Positions 40,729 through 62,813 are shown, counted from the first letter of the stretch. The stretch is DNA of 64,000 nt from Candidatus Omnitrophota bacterium (GCA_963662715.1 OY759724.1:2458662-2522661), one strand, 5' to 3'. The notes: generated by a model from the letters alone, not told the origin. Numbers and translations: made by a program.

Positions 40729-40945
40729 TTTACTAACTTGCAGCGTACCAAATTAAGTTATTATGCCGCAGTTAGTTACAAAAAGGCCATCCCGATAATT
40801 TTTTTAGAAACAATCGGATGGCCTTTTTTGATTGGGGGAGAATAGCTATAGTGCATCAAATATGCAAAAAAATTGATAATTTCATCCATTACGATACAGA
40901 CACACAATATTCTTGACAACATGTAGCTAATAAGCTACACTCTAA

Positions 40946-41279
40946 ATGATGAAAGAAAAGCGAATTCTTGTTTATAGAACACCTGCCGGCACAGAACCGT
41001 TTCTTGATTGGTTGTTCTCTTTGCGTGATAAAACGAGTCGTCATCGTATAGAGTCCCGTATTGACCGAATAAGGCAGGGAAACTATGGGGATCATAAGCG
41101 TTTCAAGGGGATCATCGAAATCCGTTTGCATTTTGGAAAGGGATATCGTCTTTATTGTGCTTAAGACGGTGACACCATTGTGATCCTTCTTCAGGGGGGG
41201 AGATAAAAGCACACAGAAAAATGATATTGACAAGGCCCTGAAATATTGGAGGAATTATCATGAACAAAACAAAACTTAG
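40946..41279 (+). pseudogene. HigB/RelE-type addiction-module killer protein (TIGR02683-like), disrupted
   Basis: N-terminal 72 aa match the family (GNYGDHKRFKGIIEIRLHFGKGYRLY). In-frame TAA at 41162-41164. The remainder (DGDTIVILLQGGDKSTQ...YW) continues only after a +1 shift in the G7 run at 41194-41200. Confidence 0.65.
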
Positions 41280-41565
41280 AACATTCGAAGACGCTCAGGT
41301 CGAGCATTACAAGAAGCATCCTAAGGAACTCAAGGGTTACCTAAAAGTCGCTCTCGAAGAGTATCAACAGGATGGAGATGAAAAGGCGTTTCTCTCTGCG
41401 TTGTCTGTTGCGGCAAAAGTCCATGGGGGTTTTAGTAAGTTGGCTGAAGAGACCGGCCTCAACCGTGAAAATTTGTACCGCGCATTATCAAAACACTCGG
41501 ATCCGCGTTTCTCTACGGTAATGCAGGTTTTAGCAAATTTAGGATTTTCATTGAAAATTGCATAA
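41260..41565 (+). CDS. HTH antitoxin of the addiction-module antidote family (HigA-like, TIGR02684-type)
   Basis: 101 aa. HTH region GFSKLAEETGLNRENLYRALS. Its start is overlapped by the restored toxin frame, the usual TA operon layout. Confidence 0.7.
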   Translation: MNKTKLRTFEDAQVEHYKKHPKELKGYLKVALEEYQQDGDEKAFLSALSVAAKVHGGFSKLAEETGLNRENLYRALSKHSDPRFSTVMQVLANLGFSLKIA

Positions 41566-41571
41566 AGCTTT

Positions 41572-41907
41572 TCATGGCCTTAATGTTCGCTCCGTAATCA
41601 TTCGTTCTTTTCCAAATTTCAGGATTTCCGTTTGCCGTTCCTTCGGCAGTTTGAGGAGGGCAAGATATTGATTCACTCGCACTCGGGAGACACCCAGCTT
41701 GGGCGCCAACTGGCTTTGTGTCAGACCTTCGGTTTGCATCATCTTCAGGTATTCCCGCGCCCGCTCAATTGGATTTACGTAGGATTTCCGGACGCTCTCT
41801 TTTCGCAGTTCCCGCTGGGTAACAACCTTCCGTTGGGGCAGGGAAGCGGGCTTTTCCCCGAATCCCAGTGCGTGTCGTTTGTCGCGCCATATGTAATAAT
41901 AGGGCAC
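41572..41907 (-). CDS. ParB-like fragment (central HTH region only)
   Basis: VNPIERAREYLKMMQTEGLTQSQLAPKLGVSRVRVNQYLALLKLPKERQ closely parallels the ParB LNPIEEA...GLTQEE.A...GKSRS.V.N.LRLL.LP.E.Q block. N-terminal and C-terminal ParB domains are absent. Confidence 0.55.
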   Translation of the reverse strand: MPYYYIWRDKRHALGFGEKPASLPQRKVVTQRELRKESVRKSYVNPIERAREYLKMMQTEGLTQSQLAPKLGVSRVRVNQYLALLKLPKERQTEILKFGKERMITERTLRP

Positions 41908-42349
41908 CGTTTCAGTTATGACATTTGAAAAAGTTTGCTGAGTGTTACGAGTGGGGAGCTTATTCTGGGACGGCTGTAACCAATTCTTTGAGTTGGATGC
42001 AGCTGTTTTTAATTTGAGGGATTCAAAAATTCAAGGGATTATTCTATAAATTTTAGCAATTTAATAATAATTGACATTATTTTTAATTTGCTATATAAAT
42101 AATCGCTACTTCAAAAATGTTGAAATGGGGATGACAAATTTGAAGGATTCTTTATGTAAAAAATCAAACCTTCGTGAAAAATAATTCGCGGAGGTTTTTT
42201 GTTTTTCAAAATAATTGAGTTTATTAAGCTTAATTACCTATCATTTTCCGTGAGGTCCTTATGAGTAGAAACAAAATTATTTTTTTAAATTATATTTATT
42301 TTTGTAAATAGGTCTATTTGTATGATGCAATGTAAAGGAATTTCCAGAG

Positions 42350-43756
42350 ATGGGCTTTATAATTTATTTAAAAAAGATATTCAGTAATAAAACGATAGCG
42401 AAGTCTACTTTTGAACATAAGAAGGCAGGTACGAATGCATCTAAAAAAATTGTCAATAAGACCACTCCGCTTCATAAAGCTGCTAACGACGGTTATCGTA
42501 CGCGGATTACACAGCTTATTAAGGCAGGAGCGAATGTTAACGCATTAGACGAGAAGGGGCGAACGCCTTTAGATCTTGCAATACAAAATTATCGTAAAAG
42601 GGCGATAAAGAAATTAAAAGAAGCTGGAGCAAAAGAAGGCATCGAGTTATTCAAGAAAAAAAATGACAAGTCCAAACTTCCCCCTAAAACATCGGTTCAA
42701 AATCAGCTTGGAGCATCAGGTCAAAATTTGCCCACTGAATCTAAAAAATCCGAGATGCAATATTTTGAAGTTGGTAGAAATAATTCAGATGAGGGTGGTT
42801 ATTGTTCGGATGACGCGTGCCCTTGTCATCCGGAGACTCCCATTCCAGTGGGACAAGGGTATCTTTACATTGATCCTGAATTAGTTGCATTTCGTCGCAA
42901 TTATCCGTCAGAAGCATCTGCCAATCAAGAGATGTTGCGCCGTGTTGAGGATTTACGACGCAATAATCCGATTTATAAAAACGCACGGATGACTTGTTCA
43001 ATCAAACCTGTGCTTGTCTGTGAGCAAGGAGCCAGACTGCGTAAGCTTAATTTAAAAATAGCCGCAGATGATGCACGGCATTGGTGGAAAACCGGGAAGG
43101 TTCCATTACGGCCCACACCTCTTGCTGATGGCAGTGTGCCTGATGTCGGTTCAGACACATACTTTAGACCGGATAAGTTTGCCGGGATAATAAATATGTC
43201 TATTTTAAGCCATACAGTTAGCTCAGACCACGTTCCGGTGGGCAGTACGTCTGTGATTTATAAAACGACTAAAGAGCATCTTAATCGTATCAGATCTGAC
43301 ATGCCGGAAATAAGTATGCAGACGATTTTTAACGAAATTGAACAGTGTGTGCTTGATAATGCCTCAGCGATTGAGGCGATGGTCCAAAAAACCATATCAG
43401 ATGGTGAGCTTCATACAAAGGTGCTGGGGGGAGGGAACACGTCAATGTTCTTGATCGTGTCCTCTTTGCCGAAAAGAATGCACGAATCTGCTGCTTTTTT
43501 TGCCGCTAAGTATCCCCCGGGTTTTGGAGGTTATTTAAACTTTTGGCTCAACTCAGAAGTGATCTGGAAGATGAAGGGTTTAGGCCATTCTGTCATGGCC
43601 CATCTTCTTGTTTATAACGATTGTGCCGTTAGTGTAGGGGTCATCCCTCTAGATCACAAAAATTTAGACACCTGCCCACGGGGCGTGCTTCCGGAGGACT
43701 CTCTTACCAAAGAAGATCGACGACTAATGGGATTAGATAAAGTTAGGATAATATAA
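42350..43756 (+). CDS. ankyrin-repeat protein with a ~330-aa C-terminal domain of unknown function
   Basis: N-terminal ANK repeats (TPLHKAANDGYRTRITQLIKAGANVNALDEKGRTPLDLAIQN). The C-terminal region (CSDDACPCHPE..., HLLVYNDCAV) has no recognisable family. Confidence 0.6.
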   Translation: MGFIIYLKKIFSNKTIAKSTFEHKKAGTNASKKIVNKTTPLHKAANDGYRTRITQLIKAGANVNALDEKGRTPLDLAIQNYRKRAIKKLKEAGAKEGIELFKKKNDKSKLPPKTSVQNQLGASGQNLPTESKKSEMQYFEVGRNNSDEGGYCSDDACPCHPETPIPVGQGYLYIDPELVAFRRNYPSEASANQEMLRRVEDLRRNNPIYKNARMTCSIKPVLVCEQGARLRKLNLKIAADDARHWWKTGKVPLRPTPLADGSVPDVGSDTYFRPDKFAGIINMSILSHTVSSDHVPVGSTSVIYKTTKEHLNRIRSDMPEISMQTIFNEIEQCVLDNASAIEAMVQKTISDGELHTKVLGGGNTSMFLIVSSLPKRMHESAAFFAAKYPPGFGGYLNFWLNSEVIWKMKGLGHSVMAHLLVYNDCAVSVGVIPLDHKNLDTCPRGVLPEDSLTKEDRRLMGLDKVRII

Positions 43757-44989: not shown

Positions 44990-44992
44990 TAA

Positions 44993-45412: not shown

Positions 45413-46493
45413 GTGAAAAAGGCTAAAATTAATACTTTCCGAATATCTGCATTTATTTCGATTGCATCTATTTTTTTTGCTGGGTGCGTATCTGTATCCA
45501 AGATTCATCAAGCAATTAGCGCTGATAACGCGGCAGAAGTCCGAAGAATTATTACTGATGATGAGAACGCTGTTAATGCAATTGATCAGCAAGGGAATAC
45601 TCCTTTGCATGTGGCATCGGTACGTGGTGATTCGGAAATAGTTGAGTTGCTTATCAAGAAGGGAGCCCTTATTGATGCTGTTAATACGGCTGGCCGTACT
45701 CCTTTGATGGCTGCCATTCTTTCAGGTAAGACATCTGTAGCCAACGTTCTAGTTGCAAAGGGAGCAAACGTAAATGCCAGAGATCGTCAAGGATGGACTC
45801 CGGTTCTTTTGGCAGCACAGGAAGGCACATATGAACTTTTAAAAATGCTTGTTGATGCCGGAGGAAATGTTTTTAATAAGAATAATGAGATGGTGACAGC
45901 TCTTCATGTCGCCAGCTTAAAAGGGAATGAGGAATTTGTCCATTTTTTTTATAGGAAAAGAAGTTAATGTCGATAGTGTCACGTTGCAAGGGCTTACTCC
46001 ATTACATTTTGCAGTTATGAATGATCATATTTCTGTTGCTGAAATATTAATAGAAAAAGGAGCAACACCAAAATTTGCTGCATCCAATGTTTATATCACA
46101 ATCAAGACCCATTTAATTTTTGCCGAATATTATAGGAAGTATTGGGATTGCGACAAGGCCGTTCATCATCTTTCTACGGCCATTAAATATCATGATGAAC
46201 ACAATGATTCTCAGAACATCGTGAAGTCTTTAACTGAGCTGAGGTTATGGAGATTGCAATGTTTAGCGCCTATTCTTTTTCCAATTGCTTACCTAGATGG
46301 ATGCATGTCTGGGCATATCCCTCAATTGGAGAATCAATGGGAGACAGAAATCCGGAATATTGAGGCTGAACAGCTGAAACTCGTAGATAGTATTGAAGAA
46401 ACTAGAAATAAACTTTTTTGTTATGAGCAATCAGATAAACGAAACGAGATTGAAGAATGTATGGGAGAGATAGATAATCCTCTCTTTCCTTAG
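45413..46493 (+). pseudogene. ankyrin-repeat lipoprotein gene interrupted by a frameshift in a T8 run (45943-45950)
   Basis: ORFs 45413..45967 and 45927..46493 together encode continuous ANK repeats (...GNEEFVHFF / IGKEVNVDSVTLQGLTPLHFAV...) if one T is removed. N-terminal lipoprotein signal FFAGC. Confidence 0.6.
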
Positions 46494-46679: not shown

Positions 46680-47012
46680 ATGATTGTATGGACTGGGAAA
46701 GGATTTGTGGTTTTTATATTCATTATGTTAGCCGTAATATGCTCGGAATATGTCTCAGAATTTTTGACAGGGGACGAACAGTTTTATGACCAAAATCCAT
46801 GGGTTCTTATGGTTGGAATGATGGTGGCTGCAGTGTGTATCTATGTATTTCATCGTTTCTACCTTCTTCGCGAAAAGTCAAAGATCGTCATAGATAAAGA
46901 AACTGGCGAGGAGCTTGATCTAAAAGAATCGCATTCGCTTTTTTTTATGCCCGTTAAGTGGTGGCCACTAATTATGATCTTTTTGGGATTCATCTGGTCA
47001 AGGTCACCGTAA
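46680..47012 (+). CDS. small membrane protein (three TM helices)
   Basis: Hydrophobic 110-aa ORF. GGAGG RBS. Confidence 0.4.
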   Translation: MIVWTGKGFVVFIFIMLAVICSEYVSEFLTGDEQFYDQNPWVLMVGMMVAAVCIYVFHRFYLLREKSKIVIDKETGEELDLKESHSLFFMPVKWWPLIMIFLGFIWSRSP

Positions 47013-47127
47013 TGCAGAAGACATTATCTTTATCCTTAAAATGAGATATAAAGAGGTAATCCTTATTCAAATTATAGGACAAGTATAAGATATGTATCTG
47101 CGAATACTTAGAGTAAAGGAGGCCTAT

Positions 47128-47766
47128 ATGAGGGAAAAAAGAGTGCTAGGAATTGTTTTTATTTTGGCAGTTAATTTAATGAGTAGCGGTTGCGGATTAT
47201 TGCCTAGAGCAAAATTAACACTAACTCCAGAACCAAATTCCATAGTTGTCGATTATTCAAAGAAATGCGGAAGAGTACAGGTCAATAAACCTGATCTAAG
47301 TCAAATGACTGAGTTTGATAGGAAAATGATATATGGATTTGCCAATGAATTAGAGAATAGCGGACTCTGTGAAGAAGTATTTTATCACACACTACCAGAA
47401 GGCCCGGTTGATCTGGCCCTTGATCTCAGCTTTGAAGCAACGCCTCACTTGTTTTGGGATGAAGAGAATGCTACAAATGAAGAATGGAAACAAATGAATA
47501 AACAAGTTCTTCCCAAGACTTTATTATTAACTTTGTCTTTAGGTATGATTCCTGCGCCTTATAATGAGGATTACTATTTAAAAGGCAAAGCTGTTATTTA
47601 TAAGAATAATAAAGAAAAAGGAGTAGTTGATGGTCAGTTCCATGCCCATTGGCACGGTACTGCAATGGGGATCATTGCTATTGAAGAAGAAACGAAAGAA
47701 GAATTCAAAAAGGTTTTATATAAACAATTAATTACAGGAATTACCGATTATTGTGAAAGTAAATGA
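47128..47766 (+). CDS. lipoprotein of unknown function
   Basis: MREKRVLGIVFILAVNLMSSGCG lipobox. AAGGAGG RBS precedes the ATG at 47128. Confidence 0.5.
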   Translation: MREKRVLGIVFILAVNLMSSGCGLLPRAKLTLTPEPNSIVVDYSKKCGRVQVNKPDLSQMTEFDRKMIYGFANELENSGLCEEVFYHTLPEGPVDLALDLSFEATPHLFWDEENATNEEWKQMNKQVLPKTLLLTLSLGMIPAPYNEDYYLKGKAVIYKNNKEKGVVDGQFHAHWHGTAMGIIAIEEETKEEFKKVLYKQLITGITDYCESK

Positions 47767-48212
47767 AAATATATGGTTTGCAGAAGAGAGGGTCGCCGGA
47801 TATGATTAATTCAACAAAAAGTCAGTTCATCTGTTTGTTTTTTTGTTTGTTTTTTCTTGGGTGCGGTTCGGTTCACAGTCAGTATATTTATGATGATTCT
47901 TACAAGGAGAATAGTCCGGTTAAGAGTGAGAAATGCTATGATGCGGCAGTGTTGTTGAATATTGATATGGAAAAGACTAAATACATATGTCGCAGATTTT
48001 TAATGGAGAAAGGCATTACTATTACTGCGGATACCGATATTTCTATAGAGGCTAGTCAAAAAAATGGACATATTGCAATTCAGTATGAAAAGGTTACAAA
48101 AGATTTAACATTTGTGACTGTGGGAACCGAGAAACAGGACTTTTGGGGTGGATTCTTGGATTCATGTGAAATCGTTGACGCTATTATAGAAAAGGCCAAT
48201 GGCTTAGAATGA
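47763..48212 (+). CDS. lipoprotein of unknown function
   Basis: FICLFFCLFFLGCGS lipobox. Start is ambiguous (47763 or 47802). Confidence 0.5.
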   Translation: MKIYGLQKRGSPDMINSTKSQFICLFFCLFFLGCGSVHSQYIYDDSYKENSPVKSEKCYDAAVLLNIDMEKTKYICRRFLMEKGITITADTDISIEASQKNGHIAIQYEKVTKDLTFVTVGTEKQDFWGGFLDSCEIVDAIIEKANGLE

Positions 48213-48445
48213 TCTAGAGTTAGTATCAGGAGTATTTCCTACATTATGCCTGTGGCGGCGTCTTAGTTCCCCAGGATGGGACACAAAGAATAGTTATTAA
48301 ACTTGACTATTCCCTGGCATCTTGTCACAAGGTAATTGATTAGTCTTCAATTCGTCCCGCCCAGGGGAGGTTTGTCCTATCTTGTACAATTGCTGAAGAA
48401 CTGATCGAAAAACTTACTTGGGAAAACAGCAAAACAGCTAATACC

Positions 48446-48874
48446 TTGCAGGGGTATTTGAACTATTTGTCCTACTATCCTGCAGGAAAATTTTCTCAGG
48501 AGGCACAAGCCCAGGTGAGCAAGCTTTCCAAGGAGGTCCTTGGCAAACGAACGTGCGTGTTGACTTCGGAACCGCAGCCGTTTCTAGAGTTTTATATGAT
48601 CGGGAATCCTTATGAGTCTGGGTTTGCGAATACAAAGATGGTGTCCAAAGGAGAGGTCAAGGACAGGGAACCACCTGAAGGTTTTATTTATGCCCTAGTC
48701 CGATGGGAAATTGAATCTAATAAAAATTTCAGTTTTAATAATTATGACCAAAACTTATATTTGGGAAAGGAGGAGCTGACGCGATATCTCCGGCCAATCG
48801 GCCTCCCTTCTAATATGAAGAATGGGCAGGAGGATACGATGTGGTGCGCTTTAAACAGCATTATCTCCATATAA
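48446..48874 (+). CDS. hypothetical protein, possibly 5'-truncated
   Basis: The only start is a TTG at 48446. The in-frame open region extends upstream to 48344 with no ATG or GTG. Confidence 0.3.
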   Translation: MQGYLNYLSYYPAGKFSQEAQAQVSKLSKEVLGKRTCVLTSEPQPFLEFYMIGNPYESGFANTKMVSKGEVKDREPPEGFIYALVRWEIESNKNFSFNNYDQNLYLGKEELTRYLRPIGLPSNMKNGQEDTMWCALNSIISI

Positions 48875-54525: not shown

Positions 54526-54754
54526 GGGGAGCCATATAAAAAGGGACGCCTTTTAGGCGTCCCTTTTTATATGCTTGCTCTGTGTAACGAGATACCCAGA
54601 GAGCGAAGCGAGCGGTTCTGCCCGAGCCCGCCAACATGCGAAGCGTTCAAGAGGGCGAGGAAATGGTGGCGAGTTGGAACGAGCCACCAGAGTCCTCGCG
54701 ACCGAGCATGGCGAGGGAGTGCCAACAGTCAGAGGACTGTGGCCGGGGGAGTTA
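54526..54754 (+). repeat. GC-rich direct repeat, copy B
   Basis: Near-identical to 52229..52458. Offset 2297 bp. Confidence 0.75.
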
Positions 54755-54809: not shown

Positions 54810-55592
54810 CTAAACGTCAGGTTTCCAAAATCTCACCACTGAAGCCTGGCAGAAGAAATCGAGCTGTTCCATAAAAAGAAATTTGGAATTAAGAAACCAA
54901 AGTGGCATTAAGATAGGTAAGGTCATGATACGGATTTTTCCGGAATGTTTCTTCACAAAGGTCCGCAGTTTTTTCCGCTTCGGGTAAGCATTGCCATTTT
55001 CGTCATATAGTTTCGGCGTGAAAAGTGAAATATTAAAATGAGGGAAGCAAATATCTGCTTTAAACCCATATTTCTTTCCAAATAAAGCAAGCCCGGTCGG
55101 AGTGGGGTTGTTGATATGCCCGGGAGCTATGCTTTCTACAAAATCATATTTACAAGTCGAAGATACCCAGAAAAGTCCGTTAGGTTTAAGGACACGGAAA
55201 GCTTCACTGAAGATATTTTTATTGATATTTTGAGGAACATGCTCATAAACATTATGGCACATAATGAAATCAATGGATGTGTCTTCAATAGGAAGGGGGT
55301 CTTTGAGGTTATGCACACGGCTGTCAATCCCGAGGTTTGCTTTTGACCATTCAACGGCACTCTTTGCCCCTTCCAAAGCAATAACATGCAGGCCGTTTTC
55401 CTGGCAGCATTTCGTGAAGAACCCTTCCCCGGCGCCCAGGTCAAGTCCAGATGCGGAATGTCCGACGTATTTGATGACTTTCTCGACAAGGGCTTGATAT
55501 GTTTTCCAGCGGTCAGTAGACCAGCCTTTTATCCTCTGTTCATAATGATCGTCATTTACAATGCCGTCTGCCTGGGCATGGTTGGTTTGCAT
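54810..55592 (-). CDS. class I SAM-dependent methyltransferase
   Basis: LDLGAGEGFF motif I, then motif II/III spacing (IDFIMCHNVYEHV, LKPNGLFWVSS). Confidence 0.7.
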   Translation of the reverse strand: MQTNHAQADGIVNDDHYEQRIKGWSTDRWKTYQALVEKVIKYVGHSASGLDLGAGEGFFTKCCQENGLHVIALEGAKSAVEWSKANLGIDSRVHNLKDPLPIEDTSIDFIMCHNVYEHVPQNINKNIFSEAFRVLKPNGLFWVSSTCKYDFVESIAPGHINNPTPTGLALFGKKYGFKADICFPHFNISLFTPKLYDENGNAYPKRKKLRTFVKKHSGKIRIMTLPILMPLWFLNSKFLFMEQLDFFCQASVVRFWKPDV

Positions 55593-55883
55593 GTTTAATC
55601 CTGATGTATAAATGCGGGAATTTATTTAGAATATTTTAGCATGCGTAATAAAGGAATTGTATGTGAATATATTTTTTGTTGGATTTGTTTAAGAAGGTTA
55701 GTATAAGATGAGAATAAAACAAGGCGAATTAGACTGAATTAATATTTAAGTGTTTTTATTTTGATTCCTTGTAGAGAATTTTGATAACTAAATTAAATCT
55801 GATAAGATAGTAATTGTGATTTTTTGTGGTATGATGGTTCCATATCCTTATATAATTTTAACAATTGATACATGTGAGGGAAC

Positions 55884-56399
55884 ATGAAAATAATAGATTT
55901 AGGATGTGGTCGGAGTAAAGTCCCCGGGACGATTGGAATTGATATGGACCCGGAATCTGATGCAGATATCATTCTCGATATTGATAAGGAGCCTATACCT
56001 TTAGAAGATAATTCTGTTGATAAAGTAAGATCATCCCAATTCTTTGAGCATTTGGAAGATCCTTTCCGTGTCTTGAGAGAAATATATCGGATTTTAAGGC
56101 CAGGTGGTGAAATTTTTATAGAAGTTCCTCATTACACATCACACATCGCACATGGTTTTGGTCATAGGCAGTATTACTCTCATAAAGAACTCGTACGTAT
56201 GCTAACATACGAAATTAGCTGTGAGATTGTAAAAGCGGAAATTACTTTTTATAAATCTTTTAGAATGGCAGGGATTCATTATCTTGCCAATAAGTTTCCT
56301 ACAAATTATGAGCGTTTCTGGGCATATATTCTTCCGGCGGAAAATATAAAGATAACCGGTAGAGTTAAAAAAGATGTGCGAGCAGAGAAAGGTAAATGA
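55884..56399 (+). CDS. class I SAM-dependent methyltransferase (Methyltransf_11-like)
   Basis: IIDLGCGRSK motif I. FFEHLEDPFRVLREIYRILRPGG. Confidence 0.7.
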   Translation: MKIIDLGCGRSKVPGTIGIDMDPESDADIILDIDKEPIPLEDNSVDKVRSSQFFEHLEDPFRVLREIYRILRPGGEIFIEVPHYTSHIAHGFGHRQYYSHKELVRMLTYEISCEIVKAEITFYKSFRMAGIHYLANKFPTNYERFWAYILPAENIKITGRVKKDVRAEKGK

Positions 56400-56448
56400 A
56401 GATTTTGCTAGAAAAATAAGTGTGCAGAAGAAAGGAAGAAAGAAGAAA

Positions 56449-56490
56449 GTGCCAGTCCCCTCAAAGGGACAGGTCGAATGAATTGAAAAA
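56449..56490 (+). repeat. short GC-rich motif GCCAGTCCCC(T/C)CAAAGGGACAGG(T/G)CGAA(T/C)GAATTGA (same motif at 62745-62790)
   Basis: Two near-identical 40-bp copies, plus a related one at 59192-59225. Each lies just downstream of a stop codon. Confidence 0.45.
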
Positions 56491-56632
56491 TAATTAGAAG
56501 GACAGTAGACGTTTTAGATATAGAATTGTGATATAGATATTCCACTATTCCTCCCCCAGTTGCAAAATTCATCCACCAGGGGGAGCCATTTAGAAATATC
56601 CAGCGCACCATTTTGCGACTGGTTAACAATCT

Positions 56633-56672
56633 GCCCTCTTTGAACTTCTTGTTCGAAGAGGGCAATTTTATT
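56633..56672 (+). terminator. rho-independent terminator
   Basis: 13-bp stem GCCCTCTTTGAAC/GTTCGAAGAGGGC (one mismatch), loop TTCTT, then AATTTTATTAT. Confidence 0.5.
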
Positions 56673-56724
56673 ATCGCGAAAAAACCACGGCCATGAGGCC
56701 GTGGATGAAGTGTAATGACCCTAG

Positions 56725-57516
56725 TTAAGCAAGGATTTTTTTGTGTAGATCGAGTTCTTTGTTAATCCATCTTTTGTAAAACTCTTCAGGCGTAGCGAAG
56801 AATAATGCCTGATGAGGGAAATCGGTGTTGTAATCGTTGATCCAACGCTTGAAGTCATCTTGAAGATCAAATGGGTTGTCCCATTCATTGATCCAAATGA
56901 AATCTTCTTTGATTCTGCGGATGACGCGTTCGGTGTCAGCATTGCCTTTGGGGTTGGACCAGGTTGAGAAGATCTGCTTGATGCCGGCCAGTGAACAATT
57001 AAGCCTGAAGCGCCCGCTGGTGGGCTGACAGCCATTGTCCGAGATCAGGTGCAGGTCATGATTCAGTGTGTCTTTGATGCCGTTTGGGAATCGGTTGTTG
57101 ATGGCCATTTCCAGGGCATCCAGCCAGTCATCAGTCTTTGACTGGATGTTGAGGCTATAGCCGATAATTTCTTTGGTATACCAGTCTAGGACGATGGTCA
57201 GATAGAACCAGCCCCAGGTCGCCAGTTTGATTTTTGTCATATCGATACCCCAGAATTGATTGGGGTGAGAAGCTCGTGGTTTCCGGCGGAGGTTGCCACG
57301 CTTGGCCTTCAAGCGATCGTTGGGTTGAACCGTTAATTGATTTTCTTGCATGAGGCGTTGGACACAATTTTTGCCAATTTTGTAATGTTTACGGTTGTTT
57401 AAATAGGCCCAGACTGAACGGTATCCCCAGAGGGGATGTTGCTTTTTAATTTGTCGGATTTTGACTAAATGTTTTTGGTCTTGTTCGATACGCTTTAGAG
57501 AACGGCGTCTTTTCAT
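56725..57516 (-). CDS. IS3-family transposase OrfB (DDE integrase core)
   Basis: WGIDMTKI...LDWYTKEIIGYSL and ...DNGCQPTS contain the DDE residues. Confidence 0.8.
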   Translation of the reverse strand: MKRRRSLKRIEQDQKHLVKIRQIKKQHPLWGYRSVWAYLNNRKHYKIGKNCVQRLMQENQLTVQPNDRLKAKRGNLRRKPRASHPNQFWGIDMTKIKLATWGWFYLTIVLDWYTKEIIGYSLNIQSKTDDWLDALEMAINNRFPNGIKDTLNHDLHLISDNGCQPTSGRFRLNCSLAGIKQIFSTWSNPKGNADTERVIRRIKEDFIWINEWDNPFDLQDDFKRWINDYNTDFPHQALFFATPEEFYKRWINKELDLHKKILA

Positions 57517-57818
57517 AACTCGTACTCGTTTTTTTTTAGTTCAACGGTCAAGTCGCCGATGATGCGTTTGAGTTTGGCGTTTTCTTTTTCAAGACGTTGC
57601 TCTTTCTGGGACTGTTGTTTGATGTCAAAGGCCATATGGCATTCTTTGAGGAACTGGTCGCGCCATTTGTAATATTGGGTTTGGCCAATTTGGTATTTGT
57701 TACAAAGTTTACTGATGTCGATTTTCCCGCTGAGGCCTTCAAGCACGATTTGGGTCTTTTGTTGGCTGGTCCATTGGCGTTTTTTCATGGGAATTGGGCT
57801 CCTTTCCTTGGAACTCAA
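57513..57818 (-). CDS. IS3-family transposase OrfA (HTH)
   Basis: 101 aa. KLCNKYQIGQTQYYKWRDQFLK HTH. Leucine-zipper tail. Confidence 0.75.
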   Translation of the reverse strand: MSSKERSPIPMKKRQWTSQQKTQIVLEGLSGKIDISKLCNKYQIGQTQYYKWRDQFLKECHMAFDIKQQSQKEQRLEKENAKLKRIIGDLTVELKKNEYEL

Positions 57819-57903
57819 TTCTACACCATTTGTTTAAATTTGTTAACTAGGGTCACTATAGAAGCGTTTCCGAGGTCTTGGTTGCGTATGATACAATGGG
57901 TGC

Positions 57904-58332
57904 ATGAGATATTTGAAGCAAGGACACACAGTTTACTATGCCAGATACCATATTGTCATTTGTACAAGATATAGGCGAAAGATATTGCGATGGGGTTCGG
58001 CGGAGTATGTCAAAAGATGCGTTTTGGGAGTGATGAGACGGTATCCTGAGATCATCATTGAAAAAGTAAATACAGATTTAGATCATATGCATCTTTTGGC
58101 ATCAATTCCGCCGAAGATGGCTGTAAGTCATGCAGTAAATCTGATTAAGAGTAACACAGCAAAGCTGATGAGGCGGCGATATAAGTTTTTAGACAAGATG
58201 TATGTGAAAAAGGCAGGGATATGGTCAGCAGGGTATTTTGTGTCAACGGTTGGAGCCGACGAAGAATCGATAAAGCGATACATCGAATATCAAGGCCGGG
58301 AAGACCGAGGACAAACGCAGATAGAATTTTAG
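57904..58332 (+). CDS. tnpA: IS200/IS605-family Y1 (HUH) transposase TnpA
   Basis: 142 aa. YHIVICTRYRRKIL. HUH motif DHMHLL. Catalytic Tyr in SAGYFVSTVG. Confidence 0.85.
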   Translation: MRYLKQGHTVYYARYHIVICTRYRRKILRWGSAEYVKRCVLGVMRRYPEIIIEKVNTDLDHMHLLASIPPKMAVSHAVNLIKSNTAKLMRRRYKFLDKMYVKKAGIWSAGYFVSTVGADEESIKRYIEYQGREDRGQTQIEF

Positions 58333-58534
58333 CTGCGTTTGCACAGTCAAAATAGTTAAGAAACCACGGCCGTGAGGCCGTGGAGTTTCATTTAACGGGA
58401 AAGATATAAATATTGAGGTAGTACATAAAACTATAAATAGCAAAATATTATGATAAAACGACACGGCGCTGTACTTAGCTTCCTCGTATGTTATATTAAA
58501 ATAAAGAGCGGCGTAATATGAGTACGGGAGTATT

Positions 58535-59134
58535 ATGAATAAAGAGTTTGTCATCCTATTGGTCATTTTCATTTTTAGTGTAAATATACAGAATTTTTAT
58601 AATTTGTATAAATTAAGCAGATCTGAAAGCGCGATAATTAAAAGCACGCCGTATCAGAAATATCATGTTATACAAGATAAAGTTCCTTATATGGACACGG
58701 AATTAACTTTATTGGCCGAGTTCCGCTTAGACGCGATGGTCATTAGTAAAAAACGATATGTGTCGGATCTGACAGCAAAATATGCGCCTTTTGATTTGCT
58801 TTTAGGATGGGGCCCGATGTCTGATCCTGATATTTTGAAACATATCCATATTAAGCAAGGAGGAAGAAGAGGGACCATTCGCTATAAATCGTCTTCACCC
58901 GTCCCGCATTTTTATGTGCAAAATTTTTTCTCAAATGTTCATGCCATTCCTGCGGATCGTGCCATATTAGAAATTATTTCAGTACTTCAGCCCGGAAATG
59001 TTATCCATTTGGAAGGTTATCTGGTCCATCAGCAAGGCAAAAACTGGAGCTGGAAAAGCTCGCTGAGTCGTTCGGACTCAGGGTATCGTTCCTGTGAGAT
59101 TTTTTATATAAAAAAAATAGACGCTGTAGAATAA
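58535..59134 (+). CDS. hypothetical protein with an N-terminal TM anchor
   Basis: 199-aa ORF. No recognisable domain. Confidence 0.4.
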   Translation: MNKEFVILLVIFIFSVNIQNFYNLYKLSRSESAIIKSTPYQKYHVIQDKVPYMDTELTLLAEFRLDAMVISKKRYVSDLTAKYAPFDLLLGWGPMSDPDILKHIHIKQGGRRGTIRYKSSSPVPHFYVQNFFSNVHAIPADRAILEIISVLQPGNVIHLEGYLVHQQGKNWSWKSSLSRSDSGYRSCEIFYIKKIDAVE

Positions 59135-59184
59135 GTAAATAAAGTAGGTGCCAAATTAGGTCACAGGGTGCTGGCAGAAAGGAA

Positions 59185-59350
59185 GGGGCCAGTCCCCAAA
59201 AGAGTGGAGGGGCCGAAGTTCTGCCCGAACCCGCCAACACGCGAAGCATTCAAACGGGCGAGGAAAAGGTGGCGAGCGACCGAGGACGAAATGTCCGAGG
59301 AAGTGCCGAAATCTCCGCGTTTCGGCCCAGAGCGAACAACCAGAGTCCTC
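59185..59350 (+). repeat. diverged copy C of the GC-rich repeat family
   Basis: Shares the core GTTCTGCCCGAACCCGCCAACACGCGAAGCATTCAAACGGGCGAGGAAAAGGTGGCGAG with copies A and B. Preceded by the GGCCAGTCCCCAAAAG motif. Confidence 0.5.
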
Positions 59351-59460: not shown

Positions 59461-61206
59461 ATGGTCTTTCAATGGGAGGAGCGATCTGTCTTTCCTTTGA
59501 GCCGTTTCATCCTGAGTAAATGTGCGAACATGAACTGTGTCATTTTCCAACCCCACGTTAGTGCATCCCGCTGGTTTAATAAAATCGTGATTCTTGTCAT
59601 ATCTTTCTGCCTCGGTGGCTGTGCAAGCTTTCCCTTGCATACAGCGATCCGTCAGCAGGACCGAAACCGGGCTAAAGAGTTAATCAACCGGAAAAGAGGG
59701 CTTAATGACTTCAACGAGCAAGGGCTTTTGCCGATTCATTTGGCGGCAAAAGCAGATGAGGTCGAATTGGTCAAGGTCATGCTGAACGCTGGTGTAGACA
59801 TTGACGCGCGCGCTAATGATCTGGCAAAAAACGTAACCCCCTTATTTGAAGCGACGGCGGCCGGGCATACACGGATGATAGAGTTCCTGCTCAAAAATGG
59901 GGCCATTCCTGACCTGGCAACAAGCGATGGCTTGACACCAGTCATGCGTGCCGCACAAGACGGTAATATCAGTGCCCTCCAGGTTCTCTGCAGAAATAAG
60001 GCCGATCTTGATCTGCAGTTACCCAATGGGTATACGTCATTGATGCTTGCCATACAGCACCGGCATTCACGGTGTATCCAAGAGCTTCTTGAAAACGGCG
60101 CTGATCCTGACATTTTGAATGCTGACGGCAGATCAGCTTTGTGGCTTAGTATAAAAGAAGATGAAAGTGATGTTGTTGAAATGTTGGCAAAGAACAAAGT
60201 GGATATAAACAGTATTAATAGTGGGATGGTCCCGCTTATACAGGCGTTTTCAGATGGAAACATAAAAATAGTAGAAACATTGATCAGGCTCGGGGCGGAT
60301 GTCAATGTGCAAAGCAGTGAAGGGTGGACTCCACTGGGATGGGCGGCGCTGAATGGAAAACCACGCTTGGTTGAATTATTGCTGCAACACGGCGCAGACA
60401 TCGATGGCGCGGATATTTCCGGTCAAACTCCGCTGTATCTGGCGGCAATACAGAATAATGCCGAAGTGGTTCTTATCTTGGTCGAAAACGGAGCGGACAT
60501 TAAGGCAAAGACGGATGAAAATACGACGGTTTTACACGCAGCTGCTCTGGGGGAACATCCGGATATGATTGATTTCTTTTTGAGGCTAGGACTACGCCCT
60601 CAAGTGGTTACTGGCGGGGCTGAAGATGCCTATGCAACGGCTTTGGCATATAAGCGTTATGGGCAATTAAATCTGAAAAATGGTGATACTGCCGGGGGCA
60701 GGGAAGCGTATGAAACGGCAGCTGAACAATTTTCACTCGCGGCCGGGAAGTATTCCGAACTGATTCAGGAGTATGCCCAAAAAATTCAATCAAAAAAGAT
60801 GAAAGAATTTTTGGCAAAAACGGCCCTTGTTCTGGCCCAGGGGGTTGTCTATGCAGCTCAGTCGTACCAGGCTGCAAGCAATTACAAAAGTTATTCTGAG
60901 GTAGCCGCTTTAAAACAGGCATCGTCAAACGGATCTGGCGTATCCGGATATTATAGTGCCTTAAATGCCTACCGGGAGGCCTATGTCCCGGTGTCCCATA
61001 CGACGGGAGGTTTCCCATCTACCATTAAGTCAGGGACCGGCGATATAAGACTGTTCACTGCTGCAAAAAACAGGTGCAACCTGCGGGCCGTAACAAGTGC
61101 CGGCTATGCACAAGAATGTTTAAGGGCCACGGAATGCTTTGCCGGAAACGATATGGCAACAGAAATTCTGGAGTGTATTCAACACGCGGAAAGAAAAAAT
61201 CTTTGA
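59461..61206 (+). CDS. large ankyrin-repeat lipoprotein (about 10 ANK repeats plus a C-terminal helical domain)
   Basis: Lipobox ISFCLGGCAS. Repeats such as GLLPIHLAAKADEVELVKVMLNAGVDIDAR. The start could be the ATG at 59530. Confidence 0.7.
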   Translation: MVFQWEERSVFPLSRFILSKCANMNCVIFQPHVSASRWFNKIVILVISFCLGGCASFPLHTAIRQQDRNRAKELINRKRGLNDFNEQGLLPIHLAAKADEVELVKVMLNAGVDIDARANDLAKNVTPLFEATAAGHTRMIEFLLKNGAIPDLATSDGLTPVMRAAQDGNISALQVLCRNKADLDLQLPNGYTSLMLAIQHRHSRCIQELLENGADPDILNADGRSALWLSIKEDESDVVEMLAKNKVDINSINSGMVPLIQAFSDGNIKIVETLIRLGADVNVQSSEGWTPLGWAALNGKPRLVELLLQHGADIDGADISGQTPLYLAAIQNNAEVVLILVENGADIKAKTDENTTVLHAAALGEHPDMIDFFLRLGLRPQVVTGGAEDAYATALAYKRYGQLNLKNGDTAGGREAYETAAEQFSLAAGKYSELIQEYAQKIQSKKMKEFLAKTALVLAQGVVYAAQSYQAASNYKSYSEVAALKQASSNGSGVSGYYSALNAYREAYVPVSHTTGGFPSTIKSGTGDIRLFTAAKNRCNLRAVTSAGYAQECLRATECFAGNDMATEILECIQHAERKNL

Positions 61207-61220
61207 AAGGGGGGAGTAAA

Positions 61221-62120
61221 ATGAATTTTTCGCATCTGCGAAACGCTCTTGTGGTTTTGGGGGTGATTTTATTGAGCGGGTGTGCCGGTGCTTTGCACAC
61301 GGCTGCCAAGCAAAATGACGTGCCCCGGGCTAAAATGTTAATCGAGAGCGGCGTTCAGGTTGACTGCCGGGCAAAGTGGAAAAATGAAACTCCTTTACAA
61401 ATGGCGGCGGAAGCGGGGAATACAGAGGTAGTGAAATTCCTGATAGATGCTGGAGCTGACGTAAATGCGGGAGGATACAATAATTTTACCGTCTTGCACA
61501 GTGCCATTACCAGCGGAAACGAAGATGTCGTCCGTCTGCTCCTAGAAAATGGCGCCAATGTCAACGCGGTTACCGATGAGGAGTATGCTCCGATTCATCA
61601 TGCGGCCTATCATGGCAATGCAAACATTATACGCTTGTTGATCAATTATGGTGCTGATCTTACACTGAAAGACAGGTGGATTAATAATATGACCCCTTAT
61701 GAACTGGCATCTGTCAGGAACCATGATAGCGTCGTTCTTAATCTTTTAAGGATTGAAGATCAGAAGGCTTCTGCTGCATCTGCCGGGATGGATGTCAACC
61801 CAGAGTCTATAGCCTCAGAGATGTCTGAGAAAAAATATGCGGTGGATGAACGCCGTCCGTATGTCGTTCTTGCGGCTGAAAGGGGACAGTACAAAGTTTT
61901 GCAGGGGCTTATTGAAAATGGCGTCGATGTGAATACAGTCTTACCCGACGGCTCTACCGCTTTGATGCTTGCGGCGAAGAGAGGTCATGATGATATCGTG
62001 AAATTGCTCCTGCGACATGGCGCTGATGTCAACGTTGAGCGTAATGATGGAGAGAATGCCATGTCTCTGGCGGCAAGTGAGGAGATTCGAGAAATCTTAA
62101 GAAGTTTTGGTGCTCAATAA
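61221..62120 (+). CDS. ankyrin-repeat lipoprotein
   Basis: MNFSHLRNALVVLGVILLSGCAG lipobox. Eight or more ANK repeats. GGGGGAG RBS. Confidence 0.7.
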   Translation: MNFSHLRNALVVLGVILLSGCAGALHTAAKQNDVPRAKMLIESGVQVDCRAKWKNETPLQMAAEAGNTEVVKFLIDAGADVNAGGYNNFTVLHSAITSGNEDVVRLLLENGANVNAVTDEEYAPIHHAAYHGNANIIRLLINYGADLTLKDRWINNMTPYELASVRNHDSVVLNLLRIEDQKASAASAGMDVNPESIASEMSEKKYAVDERRPYVVLAAERGQYKVLQGLIENGVDVNTVLPDGSTALMLAAKRGHDDIVKLLLRHGADVNVERNDGENAMSLAASEEIREILRSFGAQ

Positions 62121-62238
62121 CCTTAAAGAGTTTTGGCGTATTGGGGATCAATAAATACGCAGAGAAAGCACACATGTATTTCCAATCGTCACTTTTAATC
62201 CCCAGCATGGGCGTGCGGGTATTTACCAAGGAGAGATT

Positions 62239-62724
62239 ATGAAAAGGATGAGGAATTTTTGTTTAATTGCCGTAACTGTCATATGTGCTGGTTGTGCATC
62301 AGCCCAGGTTTGGATGAGCCCCCTGATCAGCGCACCAGCAAGGATGTCTTATTCGATTGAAATGTTTGAAGATGCCAACGACAGAAAGGACAACGCTATC
62401 TTTCCGGATGCAGCAGAAATAGTTACTAATGCTTTTGAGACGTCACTCTTAACGCATGGTTATCGCGTCATAAAGGAAGGAGAAGCAGACGCGATCATAA
62501 GCGGAAAAGTGTTGTCTTACCACCGCGGACGTTTATTCGGCCCTGGGCCAAACACTACGGTCGGATTTGAAGTGAATGCAAGAGATGCTGAAACAGGTGA
62601 GATGCTATGGAAAGCTTCACATTCAATTACAACTGAGTTTGACATTACTTATGACCCAAAACTTCTTGCGGATACGGTCTCTAACGAACTTGTGAAAAAA
62701 TTGAGCAACTGGGCAAAAGAGTGA
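62239..62724 (+). CDS. lipoprotein of unknown function
   Basis: MKRMRNFCLIAVTVICAGCAS lipobox. Confidence 0.5.
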   Translation: MKRMRNFCLIAVTVICAGCASAQVWMSPLISAPARMSYSIEMFEDANDRKDNAIFPDAAEIVTNAFETSLLTHGYRVIKEGEADAIISGKVLSYHRGRLFGPGPNTTVGFEVNARDAETGEMLWKASHSITTEFDITYDPKLLADTVSNELVKKLSNWAKE

Positions 62725-62813
62725 AAATGAAGGGGCGAAATGAAGGGGCCAGTCCCCCAAAAGGGACAGGGCGAACGAATTGAGAAATAGATAGAAAGAC
62801 AGCTACTTATTTC

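What the first reader, a model, noticed from the sequence alone, without database searches (positions are those of the whole stretch)
40729..62800. AT-richer accessory region beginning exactly at the 3' end of tRNA-Asn: ankyrin-rich island with plasmid/ICE relics
Right after tRNA-Asn(GTT) the character changes to lower GC, IS elements, a decayed TA pair, a ParB fragment and the leuA cassette. There are five ankyrin-repeat proteins within about 20 kb (42350, 45413, 50619, 59461 and 61221). Three are lipoproteins, one is fused to an unknown 330-aa domain, and one combines a zinc ribbon with TM helices. There are also many small lipoproteins. tRNA-Asn is a classic integration hotspot. The 11-mer GGGGGAGCCAT at the tRNA 3' end (40719-40729) recurs at 52228-52238 and 56579-56589. 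The B-copy site at 54526 has only four Gs before AGCCAT and so lacks the 11-mer. The 52205 and 56556 copies are embedded in a ~34-bp repeat CCAGTTGCAAAATTCATnnACnAGGGGGAGCCAT. These could be att-core scars of serially integrated elements. No integrase is present in the window, so the islands would be old or immobilised.
Basis: partly seen in the sequence, partly recalled or inferred. Interest (0 to 1): 0.6.

Follow-up and report, generated by a model that had tools for sequence, protein, structure and literature searches.

The report
Serine-recombinase island array at tRNA-Asn
Right after a tRNA-Asn gene, this Omnitrophota genome carries about 18.5 kb of foreign, AT-richer DNA made of several mobile pieces inserted one after another. 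The pieces belong to a family that apparently uses a large serine recombinase to target the tRNA's 3' end, which is unusual, and here both recombinase copies are reduced to relics, so the island is stuck.

Summary
tRNA-Asn(GTT) ends at 40728. GC falls from 0.47 to 0.39-0.42. Synteny with the three closest genomes stops at 40729-40732. The 11-mer occurs 3 times against 0.06 expected.

The repeats are att junctions of an element family common in Omnitrophota. Each junction is a conserved 23-nt "P arm" followed by the tRNA's last 10-11 nt. The window has three: 52205, 54503 and 56556. The same motif lies downstream of tRNA-Asn in 6 related genomes and occurs in 49 metagenome contigs.

Read on the minus strand, the core and P arm encode the C-terminal tail of a large serine recombinase (LSR). 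A circular 6.6-kb relative carries the intact P-core-LSR junction. At least 60 of 120 LSR homologues end in antisense tRNA sequence.

The window keeps two LSR relics. One is 8 codons at 40729-40755. The other is the ORF 56408-56669, cut by an IS200 that itself holds an IS3.

The junctions delimit segments of 11.5, 2.3 (leuA), 2.05 (two methyltransferases) and at least 2.6 kb. The 229-nt repeat is a copy of the native tRNA flank.

Corrections: the att-delimited, AT-rich island ends near 59.2 kb, and the last two ankyrin genes have core-like GC. An integrase is present as relics. Intact relatives also carry a tyrosine recombinase, so the LSR assignment is an inference.

The parts
40653..40728 (+). 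tRNA-Asn(GTT), the integration target. Its last 10 nt plus one, GGGGGAGCCAT (40719-40729), form the common core.
   Evidence: ARAGORN and Rfam. Nucleotide synteny with L001-L003 ends at 40729-40732.
40729..40755 (-). Junction 1, attL type: remnant of the element arm P'. The minus strand reads GTLQVSKWLP, the last codons of an LSR before the core.
   Evidence: 77% identity to 56572-56610 (D8). Translation, compared with GALDISKWLP at junction 4.
40946..41565 (+). Toxin-antitoxin cassette: an HI1419-type toxin pseudogene with a stop at 41162-41164, and an HI1420-type antitoxin at 41260-41565.
   Evidence: Pfam PF21716. Sequence. The antitoxin is 77% identical to the one in a 767-bp tRNA-Asn-to-P-arm cassette in L057.
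41572..41907 (-). ParB-HTH fragment of 111 aa.
   Evidence: PF17762, E = 4e-12.
42350..43756 (+). Protein with an ankyrin N-terminus, a ~125-aa shared module (residues 136-268) and an orphan C-terminus.
   Evidence: Pfam. Homologues fused to TPR, WD40 or TerB domains at 43-55% identity.
45413..46493 (+). Ankyrin lipoprotein split into two overlapping frames (45413-45967 and 45927-46493).
   Evidence: Pfam ankyrin hits in both ORFs. Lipobox FFAGC.
46680..50311 (+). Run of small membrane proteins and lipoproteins, ending with a DUF2846 lipoprotein at 49241-50311.
50619..51839 (+). Protein with a zinc ribbon, transmembrane helices and ankyrin repeats.
51894..52186 (+). Relic of a zeta-toxin-like cassette: the last 50 codons of the toxin and a 47-aa partner (52043-52186). 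It forms the right end of segment 1.
   Evidence: 56% and 66% identity to the L022 cassette that lies between tRNA-Asn and a P arm.
52205..52238 (+). Junction 2, attR type: P arm plus core.
   Evidence: Weight matrix score 41 bits.
52229..52457 (+). R1, a copy of the native flank downstream of tRNA-Asn: a terminator hairpin at 52236-52276 and a ~190-nt GC-rich multi-hairpin element ending in GGGGGAGTTA.
   Evidence: Homologous to the sequence directly after tRNA-Asn in L022 and L015. 13 of 50 predicted pairs show compensatory changes.
52741..54438 (+). leuA (2-isopropylmalate synthase), the cargo of the 2.3-kb segment 2.
   Evidence: Pfam HMGL-like, IPMS_D2 and LeuA_dimer.
54503..54535 (+). 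Junction 3: variant P arm plus core with one G fewer.
   Evidence: Weight matrix score 14.4 bits against a shuffle maximum of 10.4. Alignment.
54526..54754 (+). R2, 99% identical to R1.
   Evidence: D1; covariance model 202 bits.
54810..56399 (.). Two class-I SAM methyltransferases, 54810-55592 (-) and 55884-56399 (+), the cargo of segment 3.
56556..56589 (+). Junction 4, attP type: P arm plus core, followed directly by the LSR-side arm.
   Evidence: Weight matrix score 47 bits.
56408..56669 (-). Relic of the 3' end of a large serine recombinase gene. The open frame runs through the core (WLP) and the P arm (LVDEFCNW...).
   Evidence: tblastn: 33 aa, 67% identity to L007 LSR residues 340-372, E = 6e-9. 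Translation.
56679..58390 (+). IS200 (end hairpins at 56685-56704 and 58364-58384; tnpA 57904-58332) that truncates the LSR. It is itself interrupted by an IS3-family element at about 56706-57865 (orfA/orfB on the minus strand).
   Evidence: Pfam. Repeats D10 and I1/I2.
58535..59134 (+). ORF of 199 aa with no family assignment.
59177..59350 (+). R3, a decayed and interrupted copy of R. It is the probable distal limit of the AT-rich island.
   Evidence: 88-90% identity over 59 nt and 86% over 21 nt. GC returns to 0.469 after it.
59461..62724 (+). Two ankyrin lipoproteins (59461-61206 and 61221-62120) and a small lipoprotein (62239-62724). GC is core-like, so island membership is not shown.

Best explanation
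The stretch from 40729 to about 59.2 kb is a composite genomic island. It was built by repeated site-specific integration at the 3' end of tRNA-Asn(GTT) by members of one element family.

The family's attP lies inside the 3' end of its own large serine recombinase (LSR) gene. On the minus strand, the LSR reading frame runs through the 10-11-nt core, which reads W-L-P and is the antisense of GGGGAGCCA. It then continues into the P arm, which encodes a tail of about 25 aa.

Crossover within the core joins the element to the tRNA. The tRNA stays intact. The LSR tail is replaced by antisense tRNA codons (WLPREDSNLG...). The orphaned P arm plus core is left at the far end of the element. Repeating this, with or without a resident LSR, stacks units that are each closed by a P arm plus core.

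In this window the junctions at 52238, 54535 and 56589 bound four units:
- 11.5 kb carrying ankyrin proteins, lipoproteins and toxin-antitoxin relics;
- 2.3 kb carrying leuA;
- 2.05 kb carrying two methyltransferases;
- an LSR-bearing unit whose recombinase was destroyed by IS200 and IS3.

The 229-nt repeat R is the tRNA's native downstream flank. It was duplicated when the leuA unit went in.

Shown: the junctions, the homology of their arms, the LSR relics, the circular relative, and the tRNA-antisense tails across the family. Inferred: that the LSR, and not the co-resident tyrosine recombinase of intact relatives, is the catalyst; the order of events; and any role of the cargo in contact with a host or prey.
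For: Boundary.
- Synteny with L001-L003 ends at 40729-40732.
- The regions downstream of recR and tRNA-Asn in 30 relatives share nothing except LSR genes.

Junctions.
- There are three P-arm sites, all on the + strand and all inside the island.
- The same P arm plus core lies downstream of tRNA-Asn, on the same strand, in L008, L014, L015, L018 and L022.
- It occurs in 49 metagenome contigs. Nine of these also show the tRNA, always upstream on the same strand, 0.6-8.3 kb away.
- Two of the contigs carry two P arms each.

Link to the LSR.
- The LSR gene abuts and overlaps tRNA-Asn in L007, L008, L018 and L095, and tRNA-Asp in L096.
- The P-core-LSR configuration is seen in the window, in L073 and in L097. 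L097 has an exact 30-nt terminal overlap, so it is a 6,619-bp circle or tandem.
- Of 120 LSR homologues with at least 52% identity, 60 end in a T-loop-antisense motif (xDSNx), 30 stop at or just after the W that is the antisense of CCA, and 5 carry the P-arm tail.
- The frame through orphan P arms stays open, with stops clustered at codons 27-31 in 23 of 51 sequences.

Native flank.
- R follows tRNA-Asn directly in L022 and L015.

Cassette homology.
- The toxin-antitoxin modules at both ends of segment 1 match cassettes in L057 and L022.
Against: - No intact LSR is in the window and no activity was tested.
- Intact relatives (L008, L095-L099) also encode a tyrosine recombasine-type enzyme (a tyrosine recombinase) with an HTH protein. 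That class of enzyme classically targets tRNA genes, and a 10-11-bp identity block is more typical of it than of LSRs.
- Stacked units need recombination at attL- or attR-like sites. Canonical LSRs avoid this.
- The relatives are different species (about 76% nucleotide identity), so 'absent in relatives' is weaker than a within-species comparison.
- The distal end of the island is not defined by a clean junction.
- The leuA unit could have entered by homologous recombination through R.
Confidence: 0.7

Rival explanations
1. The island was built by serial integration at tRNA-Asn as described, but the catalyst is the tyrosine recombinase that intact relatives carry with an HTH protein. The LSR would then have another role, such as resolution or inversion.
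For: A Phage_integrase gene with an HTH_3 gene lies in L008, L095, L096, L097 and L098/L099. tRNA attB sites are typical of tyrosine integrases: 16 of 23 Int-Y sites overlap a tRNA or the tmRNA in M. abscessus (PMC10654092), and 31 tRNA sites were found for tyrosine prophages in Paracoccus (PMC6536676). The 10-11-bp shared core also fits.
Against: attP lies inside the LSR gene's 3' end, 2 kb from the tyrosine gene in the L097 circle. At least 60 of 120 LSR homologues end in tRNA antisense. The window keeps LSR relics at two junctions and no trace of a tyrosine recombinase. One serine-recombinase phage integrating in tRNA-Met is on record (PMC6536676).
Confidence: 0.15
2. There was no serial site-specific integration in this genome. 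A single old variable region was later reshaped by duplication and homologous recombination between copies of R and of the P arm, by insertion-sequence activity and by deletions.
For: R1 and R2 are 99% identical over 229 nt, enough for homologous recombination. IS3 and IS200 are present. The relatives are too distant to date events.
Against: Identity drops from 99% to about 60% exactly at the core, at the left edge of R1 and R2. The junction arms match independent cassettes in other genomes. Two separate LSR relics sit exactly at cores.
Confidence: 0.1
3. The P-arm, core and R modules are functional RNA or terminator units, for example tRNA-like 3' elements or processing sites placed between operons, and are not recombination scars.
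For: R has conserved hairpins with compensatory changes and folds better than shuffles, with z-scores of -2.7 and -3.6. Hairpins follow most cores.
Against: The P arm is contiguous with the LSR reading frame and varies at synonymous positions such as GAG/GAA and GAC/GAT. R is found in only three genomes, whereas the P arm is widespread. Rfam gives no match.
Confidence: 0.05

Closest known systems
SCC / ECC cassette chromosomes of staphylococci and enterococci (Ccr large serine recombinases; PMC6222049)
   Same: A large serine recombinase inserts elements at the 3' end of a conserved housekeeping gene and leaves that gene intact. Short direct repeats bound each unit. Composite tandem arrays include units that lack a recombinase. 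Cargo is highly variable.
   Different: The target here is a tRNA gene and not rlmH. There is one LSR and not a CcrA/CcrB pair. attP lies inside the LSR's own coding end, so integration swaps its C-terminal tail. Orthology to Ccr was not tested. The host phylum is Omnitrophota.
Classical tRNA-linked genomic islands and prophages with tyrosine integrases
   Same: Insertion at the tRNA's 3' end with the tRNA restored, a partial tRNA copy at the far end, a lower GC content, toxin-antitoxin modules and insertion sequences, and tandem occupancy of one tRNA.
   Different: The recombinase relics at the junctions are of the serine type. The repeated arm upstream of the core is the recombinase's own C-terminal coding sequence and not simply a displaced tRNA end.
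ICE/CIME accretion (cis-mobilisable elements flanked by att sites but lacking recombination genes, as described for Streptococcus thermophilus; cited from my own knowledge)
   Same: Units without a recombinase, bounded by att sites, are stacked beside a recombinase-bearing element at one chromosomal site.
   Different: Those systems use tyrosine integrases and conjugation modules. No conjugation genes are seen here.
Paracoccus phage vB_PamS_Pami6 (a serine recombinase phage with a tRNA-Met integration site; PMC6536676)
   Same: It is a precedent for a serine recombinase using a tRNA gene as attB.
   Different: It is a single phage, and no overlap of attP with the recombinase gene and no cassette arrays are reported in the passages read.
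Integrons
   Same: An ordered array of small, mostly promoter-less units, each closed by a conserved recombination site next to a fixed primary site.
   Different: There is no IntI tyrosine recombinase, no attC hairpin sites and no attI. The primary site is a tRNA 3' end.

Membership tests
tRNA-linked genomic island | Insertion at the 3' end of an intact tRNA gene | tested here: met
   The tRNA is intact (69 bits in Rfam). Synteny ends at 40729-40732.
tRNA-linked genomic island | Direct repeats of the tRNA 3' end bounding the insert(s) | tested here: met
   Three exact 11-mers and one variant, against 0.06 expected.
tRNA-linked genomic island | Composition differs from the core genome | tested here: met
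   GC is 0.39-0.42 against 0.47, below every 2.3-kb window of the core, but only up to about 59.2 kb.
tRNA-linked genomic island | Absent at the same site in related genomes | tested here: met
   No island protein is found downstream of tRNA-Asn in 30 relatives. The relatives are other species, so this is weaker than a within-species comparison.
tRNA-linked genomic island | Integrase gene next to an att site | tested here: inconclusive
   Only relics remain: 33 homologous residues in an 85-codon frame at 56408-56669, and 8 codons at 40729-40755.
Large-serine-recombinase integrative element | A gene with Resolvase, Recombinase and zinc-ribbon domains inside the element | tested here: not met
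   Not met in the window, where the catalytic domains are gone. It is met in relatives L008, L095-L098 and, apart from the N-terminus that runs off the contig, in L007.
Large-serine-recombinase integrative element | Recombinase gene adjacent to attP, or to attL after integration | tested here: met
   The LSR frame crosses the core in the window, L007, L008, L018, L073, L095, L096 and L097.
Large-serine-recombinase integrative element | Strand exchange at a central 2-bp crossover, with direction controlled by a directionality factor | not testable with these tools
   This needs recombination assays.
SCC-type composite cassette array | Ccr-family recombinases and an rlmH 3'-end target | tested here: not met
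   The target is tRNA-Asn. Ccr orthology was not examined.
SCC-type composite cassette array | Tandem units bounded by the same short repeat, some lacking a recombinase | tested here: met
   Window segments 1-4. Arrays also occur in L018, L050, L079 and L099.
ICE or plasmid relic | Conjugation (T4SS, relaxase) or replication genes | tested here: not met
   Pfam scans of 30 ORFs between 40.9 and 63.5 kb found none, only a toxin-antitoxin pair and a ParB-HTH fragment.
Integron | IntI tyrosine recombinase, attI and attC sites | tested here: not met
   The window has no tyrosine recombinase. The junctions are linear P-arm plus core motifs.

The most novel reading that the evidence does not exclude
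A widespread LSR family, seen in Omnitrophota and in contigs labelled Planctomycetota and Zixibacteria, has its attP inside its own 3' coding end and targets tRNA 3' ends.

Integration would then swap the enzyme's C-terminal ~25 residues for antisense tRNA codons. That swap could act as a built-in switch between the integration-competent and integrated forms.

The inserted arm also carries a hairpin like the tRNA's native terminator. The occupied site would therefore still resemble a free attB and accept further units. The result would be an integron-like cassette platform at a tRNA gene. The array in this window would be a fossil of such a platform.
Probability: 0.3. Interest if true: 0.75.

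Novelty: new variant of a known kind. Interest (0 to 1): 0.6.

Why it matters
tRNA-linked islands are textbook, but they are almost always attributed to tyrosine integrases. The evidence here points instead to a large family of serine recombinases whose genes end inside tRNA genes and whose attP is part of their own reading frame.

If confirmed, this would add a new class of tRNA-specific serine integrases. These enzymes are in demand as genome-engineering tools because of their short sites and one-way reactions. It would also offer a simple sequence signature for finding their att sites in metagenomes: a W-L-P / xDSNx tail, or the P arm.

It would further explain how Omnitrophota, a phylum without cultured model strains, acquire accessory genes such as ankyrin lipoproteins, defence systems and toxin-antitoxin modules at one hotspot.

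Tried and rejected
- Exact-protein look-ups of four window proteins, including the identical database entry P0001 on a 3.36-Mb contig, returned no contig. The region beyond 64 kb could not be read and the organism could not be named.
- Scans of viral contigs for the P arm, for R and for the LSR found nothing.
- I first counted L002's LSR as abutting a P arm. It belongs to a different subfamily (24% identity) and lies beyond a native-type hairpin like L020's flank. I dropped it as evidence.
- A 13-nt dyad around junction 4 (CCAGTTGCAAAAT / ATTTTGCGACTGG, centred on 56588/9) looked like serine-integrase half-sites. It is not reproduced at L073, L077 or L018, so I give it no weight.
- A possible fifth junction at about 59146-59176 (19 of 34 matches to the P arm) is not supported by the weight matrix.
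- Rfam gave no family for R or for the junctions. A covariance model of R found it only in the window, L015 and L022, with a weak hit in L064.
- No downstream core gene shared among the relatives could be found, so the island's right end could not be fixed by synteny.
- The literature searches found one serine-recombinase phage at tRNA-Met and no description of this family.
Full report
OBSERVATION. ARAGORN and Rfam place tRNA-Asn(GTT) at 40653-40728. The 11-mer GGGGGAGCCAT, which is the acceptor 3' strand, the discriminator base, CCA and one further base, occurs at 40719, 52228 and 56579. That is 3 matches against 0.06 expected by chance. The site at 54525 has one G fewer. GC is 0.470 upstream of the tRNA and 0.39-0.42 from 40729 to 59176. 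This is lower than any 2.3-kb window of the upstream 40 kb. GC returns to 0.469 in 59177-62800.

Pfam confirms the gene list. Ankyrin proteins start at 42350, 45413 (continued out of frame in 45927), 50619, 59461 and 61221. The list also includes leuA, two SAM methyltransferases, an IS3-family orfA/orfB pair, an IS200 tnpA, an HI1420-type antitoxin beside a toxin gene with an in-frame stop, and a 111-aa ParB-HTH fragment. Three of the ankyrin proteins have lipobox-like N-termini. Ankyrin motifs occur 14 times between 42.5 and 62 kb. They do not occur in the first 40 kb or in 430 kb of relatives' loci.

ORGANISM AND SYNTENY. A scan of one genome per species with the window's RecR returned 30 Omnitrophota metagenome-assembled genomes. 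Some records carry the label 'Planctomycetales'. The three closest, L001-L003, have 83-85% RecR identity and about 76% nucleotide identity. They align with the window from 29.1 kb up to 40729-40732 and then stop.

No island protein has a homologue downstream of recR and tRNA-Asn in any relative, apart from IS3 fragments and a cold-shock protein. The downstream regions of the 30 relatives share nothing with one another except large serine recombinase (LSR) genes. Several contigs break within a few hundred bases after the tRNA. The caveat is that these relatives are other species.

WHAT THE REPEATS ARE. The three non-tRNA copies share a 23-nt arm upstream of the core. I call this the P arm; its consensus is CCAGTTGCRAAAYTCGTCCACnn. 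A weight matrix built from homologous sites elsewhere finds only these three sites in 64 kb, all on the + strand. Their scores are 47, 41 and 14 bits, against a shuffle maximum of 10.4.

The same arm plus core lies downstream of tRNA-Asn, on the same strand, in several relatives. The distances are 9.3 kb in L008, 1.5 kb in L014, 3.5 kb in L015, 5.7 kb in L018 (which also has a variant copy) and 1.0 kb in L022. A pattern scan of metagenome contigs found 49 contigs with the arm. Nine of them show the tRNA-Asn 3' half. In every case the tRNA is upstream and in the same orientation, 0.6-8.3 kb away. Two contigs carry two arms each. The units between the tRNA and the arm hold toxin-antitoxin pairs, lipoproteins, glycosyltransferases and similar genes.

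LINK TO A SERINE RECOMBINASE. In L007, L008 and L018 an LSR gene on the opposite strand abuts tRNA-Asn. Its reading frame runs into the tRNA, giving ...WLPRE(D/G)SNLG.... The window's minus strand at 56571-56669 encodes 33 residues that are 67% identical to the C-terminus of L007's LSR (E = 6e-9). That frame continues through the core (W-L-P) and the P arm (LVDEFCNW...) to a stop at 56408. The tRNA-proximal junction keeps eight such codons, GTLQVSKWLP, at 40729-40755.

The same P-core-LSR arrangement occurs in L073 and in L097. L097 is a 6,649-nt contig with an exact 30-nt terminal overlap. It is therefore a 6,619-bp circle or a tandem repeat. I read this as the excised form with an intact attP.

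A search with L008's LSR found 1,330 relatives. Among the best 120, 60 end in a T-loop-antisense motif (xDSNx), most of them after W-L-P. Thirty stop at or just after the W that is the antisense of CCA. Five carry the P-arm tail. Two of these were checked in their genomic context. One overlaps tRNA-Asn (L095) and one overlaps tRNA-Asp (L096). In orphan P arms the frame stays open, and stops cluster at codons 27-31 in 23 of 51 sequences. Many positions of the arm were fixed by my search pattern, so invariance there carries no information.

ANATOMY OF THE WINDOW.
- Junction 1 (40719-40755) is of attL type: tRNA, core and an LSR-arm remnant.
- Segment 1 (to 52238, 11.5 kb) begins with a toxin-antitoxin pair whose antitoxin is 77% identical to that of a 767-bp cassette in L057. 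It ends with the relic of a zeta-toxin-like pair that matches the L022 cassette. In between lie the ParB fragment, three ankyrin genes and a run of lipoproteins.
- Junction 2 (52205-52238) is of attR type: P arm and core, followed by R.
- R is the 229-nt repeat. Its copies at 52229-52457 and 54526-54754 are 99% identical. It is homologous to the sequence that follows tRNA-Asn directly in L022 and L015, so it is the tRNA's native flank.
- Segment 2 (2.3 kb) carries leuA and ends at junction 3 (54503-54535), followed by the second R.
- Segment 3 (2.05 kb) carries two methyltransferases and ends at junction 4 (56556-56589), which is of attP type.
- Segment 4 starts with the LSR relic. The relic is cut at 56679 by an IS200 with end hairpins at 56685-56704 and 58364-58384. 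That IS200 is itself split by an IS3-family element with inverted repeats at 56713-56728 and 57843-57858.
- A decayed, interrupted R copy lies at 59177-59350. After it, GC is core-like.

Identity between the two R copies falls from 99% to about 60% exactly at the core. This is the pattern expected of site-specific exchange.

MECHANISM. I propose that attP spans the 3' end of the LSR gene. Crossover occurs inside the 10-11-nt block shared with the tRNA end. Most of that block is needed only to rebuild the tRNA. Integration truncates and re-tails the LSR, and the orphan tail (the P arm) marks the far end of each unit. Stacked units then resemble SCC/ECC composite islands, in which Ccr serine recombinases act at the 3' end of rlmH (PMC6222049).

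The shown steps are the junction structure, the arm homologies, the LSR relics, the circular relative and the family-wide tRNA-antisense tails. Three things are inferred: catalysis by the LSR, the order of insertions, and how units without a recombinase move.

The main caution is that intact relatives also carry a tyrosine recombinase with an HTH gene, alongside defence cargo. tRNA sites are typical of that enzyme class (PMC10654092; PMC6536676). One serine-recombinase phage with a tRNA-Met site is on record (PMC6536676). The combination seen here is therefore rare but not unprecedented.

CARGO. The ankyrin proteins, including the lipoproteins and the zinc-ribbon transmembrane form, are protein-binding modules predicted to sit at the cell envelope. 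A role in contact with a host or prey is plausible, given the host-dependent lifestyles proposed for Omnitrophota. That link comes from my own knowledge and was not tested here. In the 468-aa protein, only residues 136-268 have relatives. These are a ~125-aa module fused elsewhere to TPR, WD40 or TerB domains.

VERDICT. It needs three corrections: integrase relics are present and are of the serine type, the demonstrable island ends near 59.2 kb, and there is no evidence for an ICE or plasmid origin. The system is a new variant of a known kind.

Noticed in passing
L008 10847-11071; L015 11451-11720; L022 5769-6076: In these relatives tRNA-Asn(GTT) is interrupted in the anticodon loop by a group I intron (Rfam RF00028, 58-73 bits). 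ARAGORN missed these tRNAs. By the 3'-half pattern, several more relatives (L006, L009, L017, L020, L023, L025, L028, L033) also have tRNA-Asn genes that ARAGORN missed.
   Followed up: partly
window 52277-52457 and 54574-54754; L022 6160-6352; L015 11806-12000: R is a ~190-nt GC-rich element just after the tRNA-Asn terminator. It has 4-5 hairpins, and 13 of 50 predicted pairs are kept by changes on both sides across only three genomes. G-U pairs favour the + strand. Its ends resemble the tRNA-Asn acceptor stem and it closes with GGGGGAGTTA. There is no Rfam match. It is a candidate new small RNA, but the sample is too small to be sure.
   Followed up: partly
L097 (whole, 6,649 nt); also L008, L095, L096, L098/L099: The intact elements share one layout: tyrosine recombinase, HTH_3 protein, variable defence cargo (DNA methylase with ResIII, or EcoRI-type methylase with GmrSD/HNH), and then the LSR at the tRNA end. 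Carrying two recombinases of different classes in a 6.6-kb circle is unexplained.
   Followed up: partly
L096 10001-11530: An LSR with 59% identity to L008's overlaps tRNA-Asp(GTC) and not tRNA-Asn. The family has therefore switched tRNA targets.
   Followed up: no
L099 5100-6966 (and L098): Two methyltransferase genes sit between two P arms directly beside an attP-configured LSR. This is the same layout as window segment 3 (54536-56589), although the proteins are not detectably homologous.
   Followed up: partly
window 56440-56505, 59177-59201, 62737-62802: A further short repeat family (GGGGCCAGTCCCC...AAAGGGACAGG..., 84-92% identity) follows the 3' ends of genes at 56399 and 62724 and opens R3. 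Its nature is unknown.
   Followed up: no
window 45413-46493: The ankyrin lipoprotein gene is split into two overlapping frames (45413-45967 and 45927-46493). This is probably a frameshift pseudogene or a sequencing error.
   Followed up: no
window 42755-43153 (residues 136-268 of the 468-aa protein): A ~125-aa Cys-containing module of unknown function is shared at 43-55% identity with proteins that carry TPR, WD40 or TerB domains. Residues 270-468 have no relatives in 5.8 billion sequences.
   Followed up: partly
window 35865-38195: The MscS-like and NAD-epimerase genes (36025-38024) are missing between the syntenic blocks in L001-L003. They are present upstream of dnaX in more distant relatives, so the L001-L003 lineage has probably lost them.
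   Followed up: partly
L021 8070-10030: A 1.86-kb insert (HTH protein and a HigB/HigA-like pair) is flanked by repeats of more than 100 nt. Each repeat comprises a near-perfect tRNA-Asn 3' copy and its terminator, with no P arm. This is a different kind of insertion at the same hotspot.
   Followed up: partly
L022 5530-5730; window 59276-59305: Two tandem ~103-nt repeats lie upstream of L022's tRNA-Asn. They share an exact 30-nt motif (ACCGAGGACGAAATGTCCGAGGAAGTG...) with the insertion inside the window's R3.
   Followed up: no
window 62948-63151 and 63766-64000: Two cold-shock-domain genes lie close together at the end of the window. A csp gene also follows recR directly in L011, on the opposite strand.
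   Followed up: no
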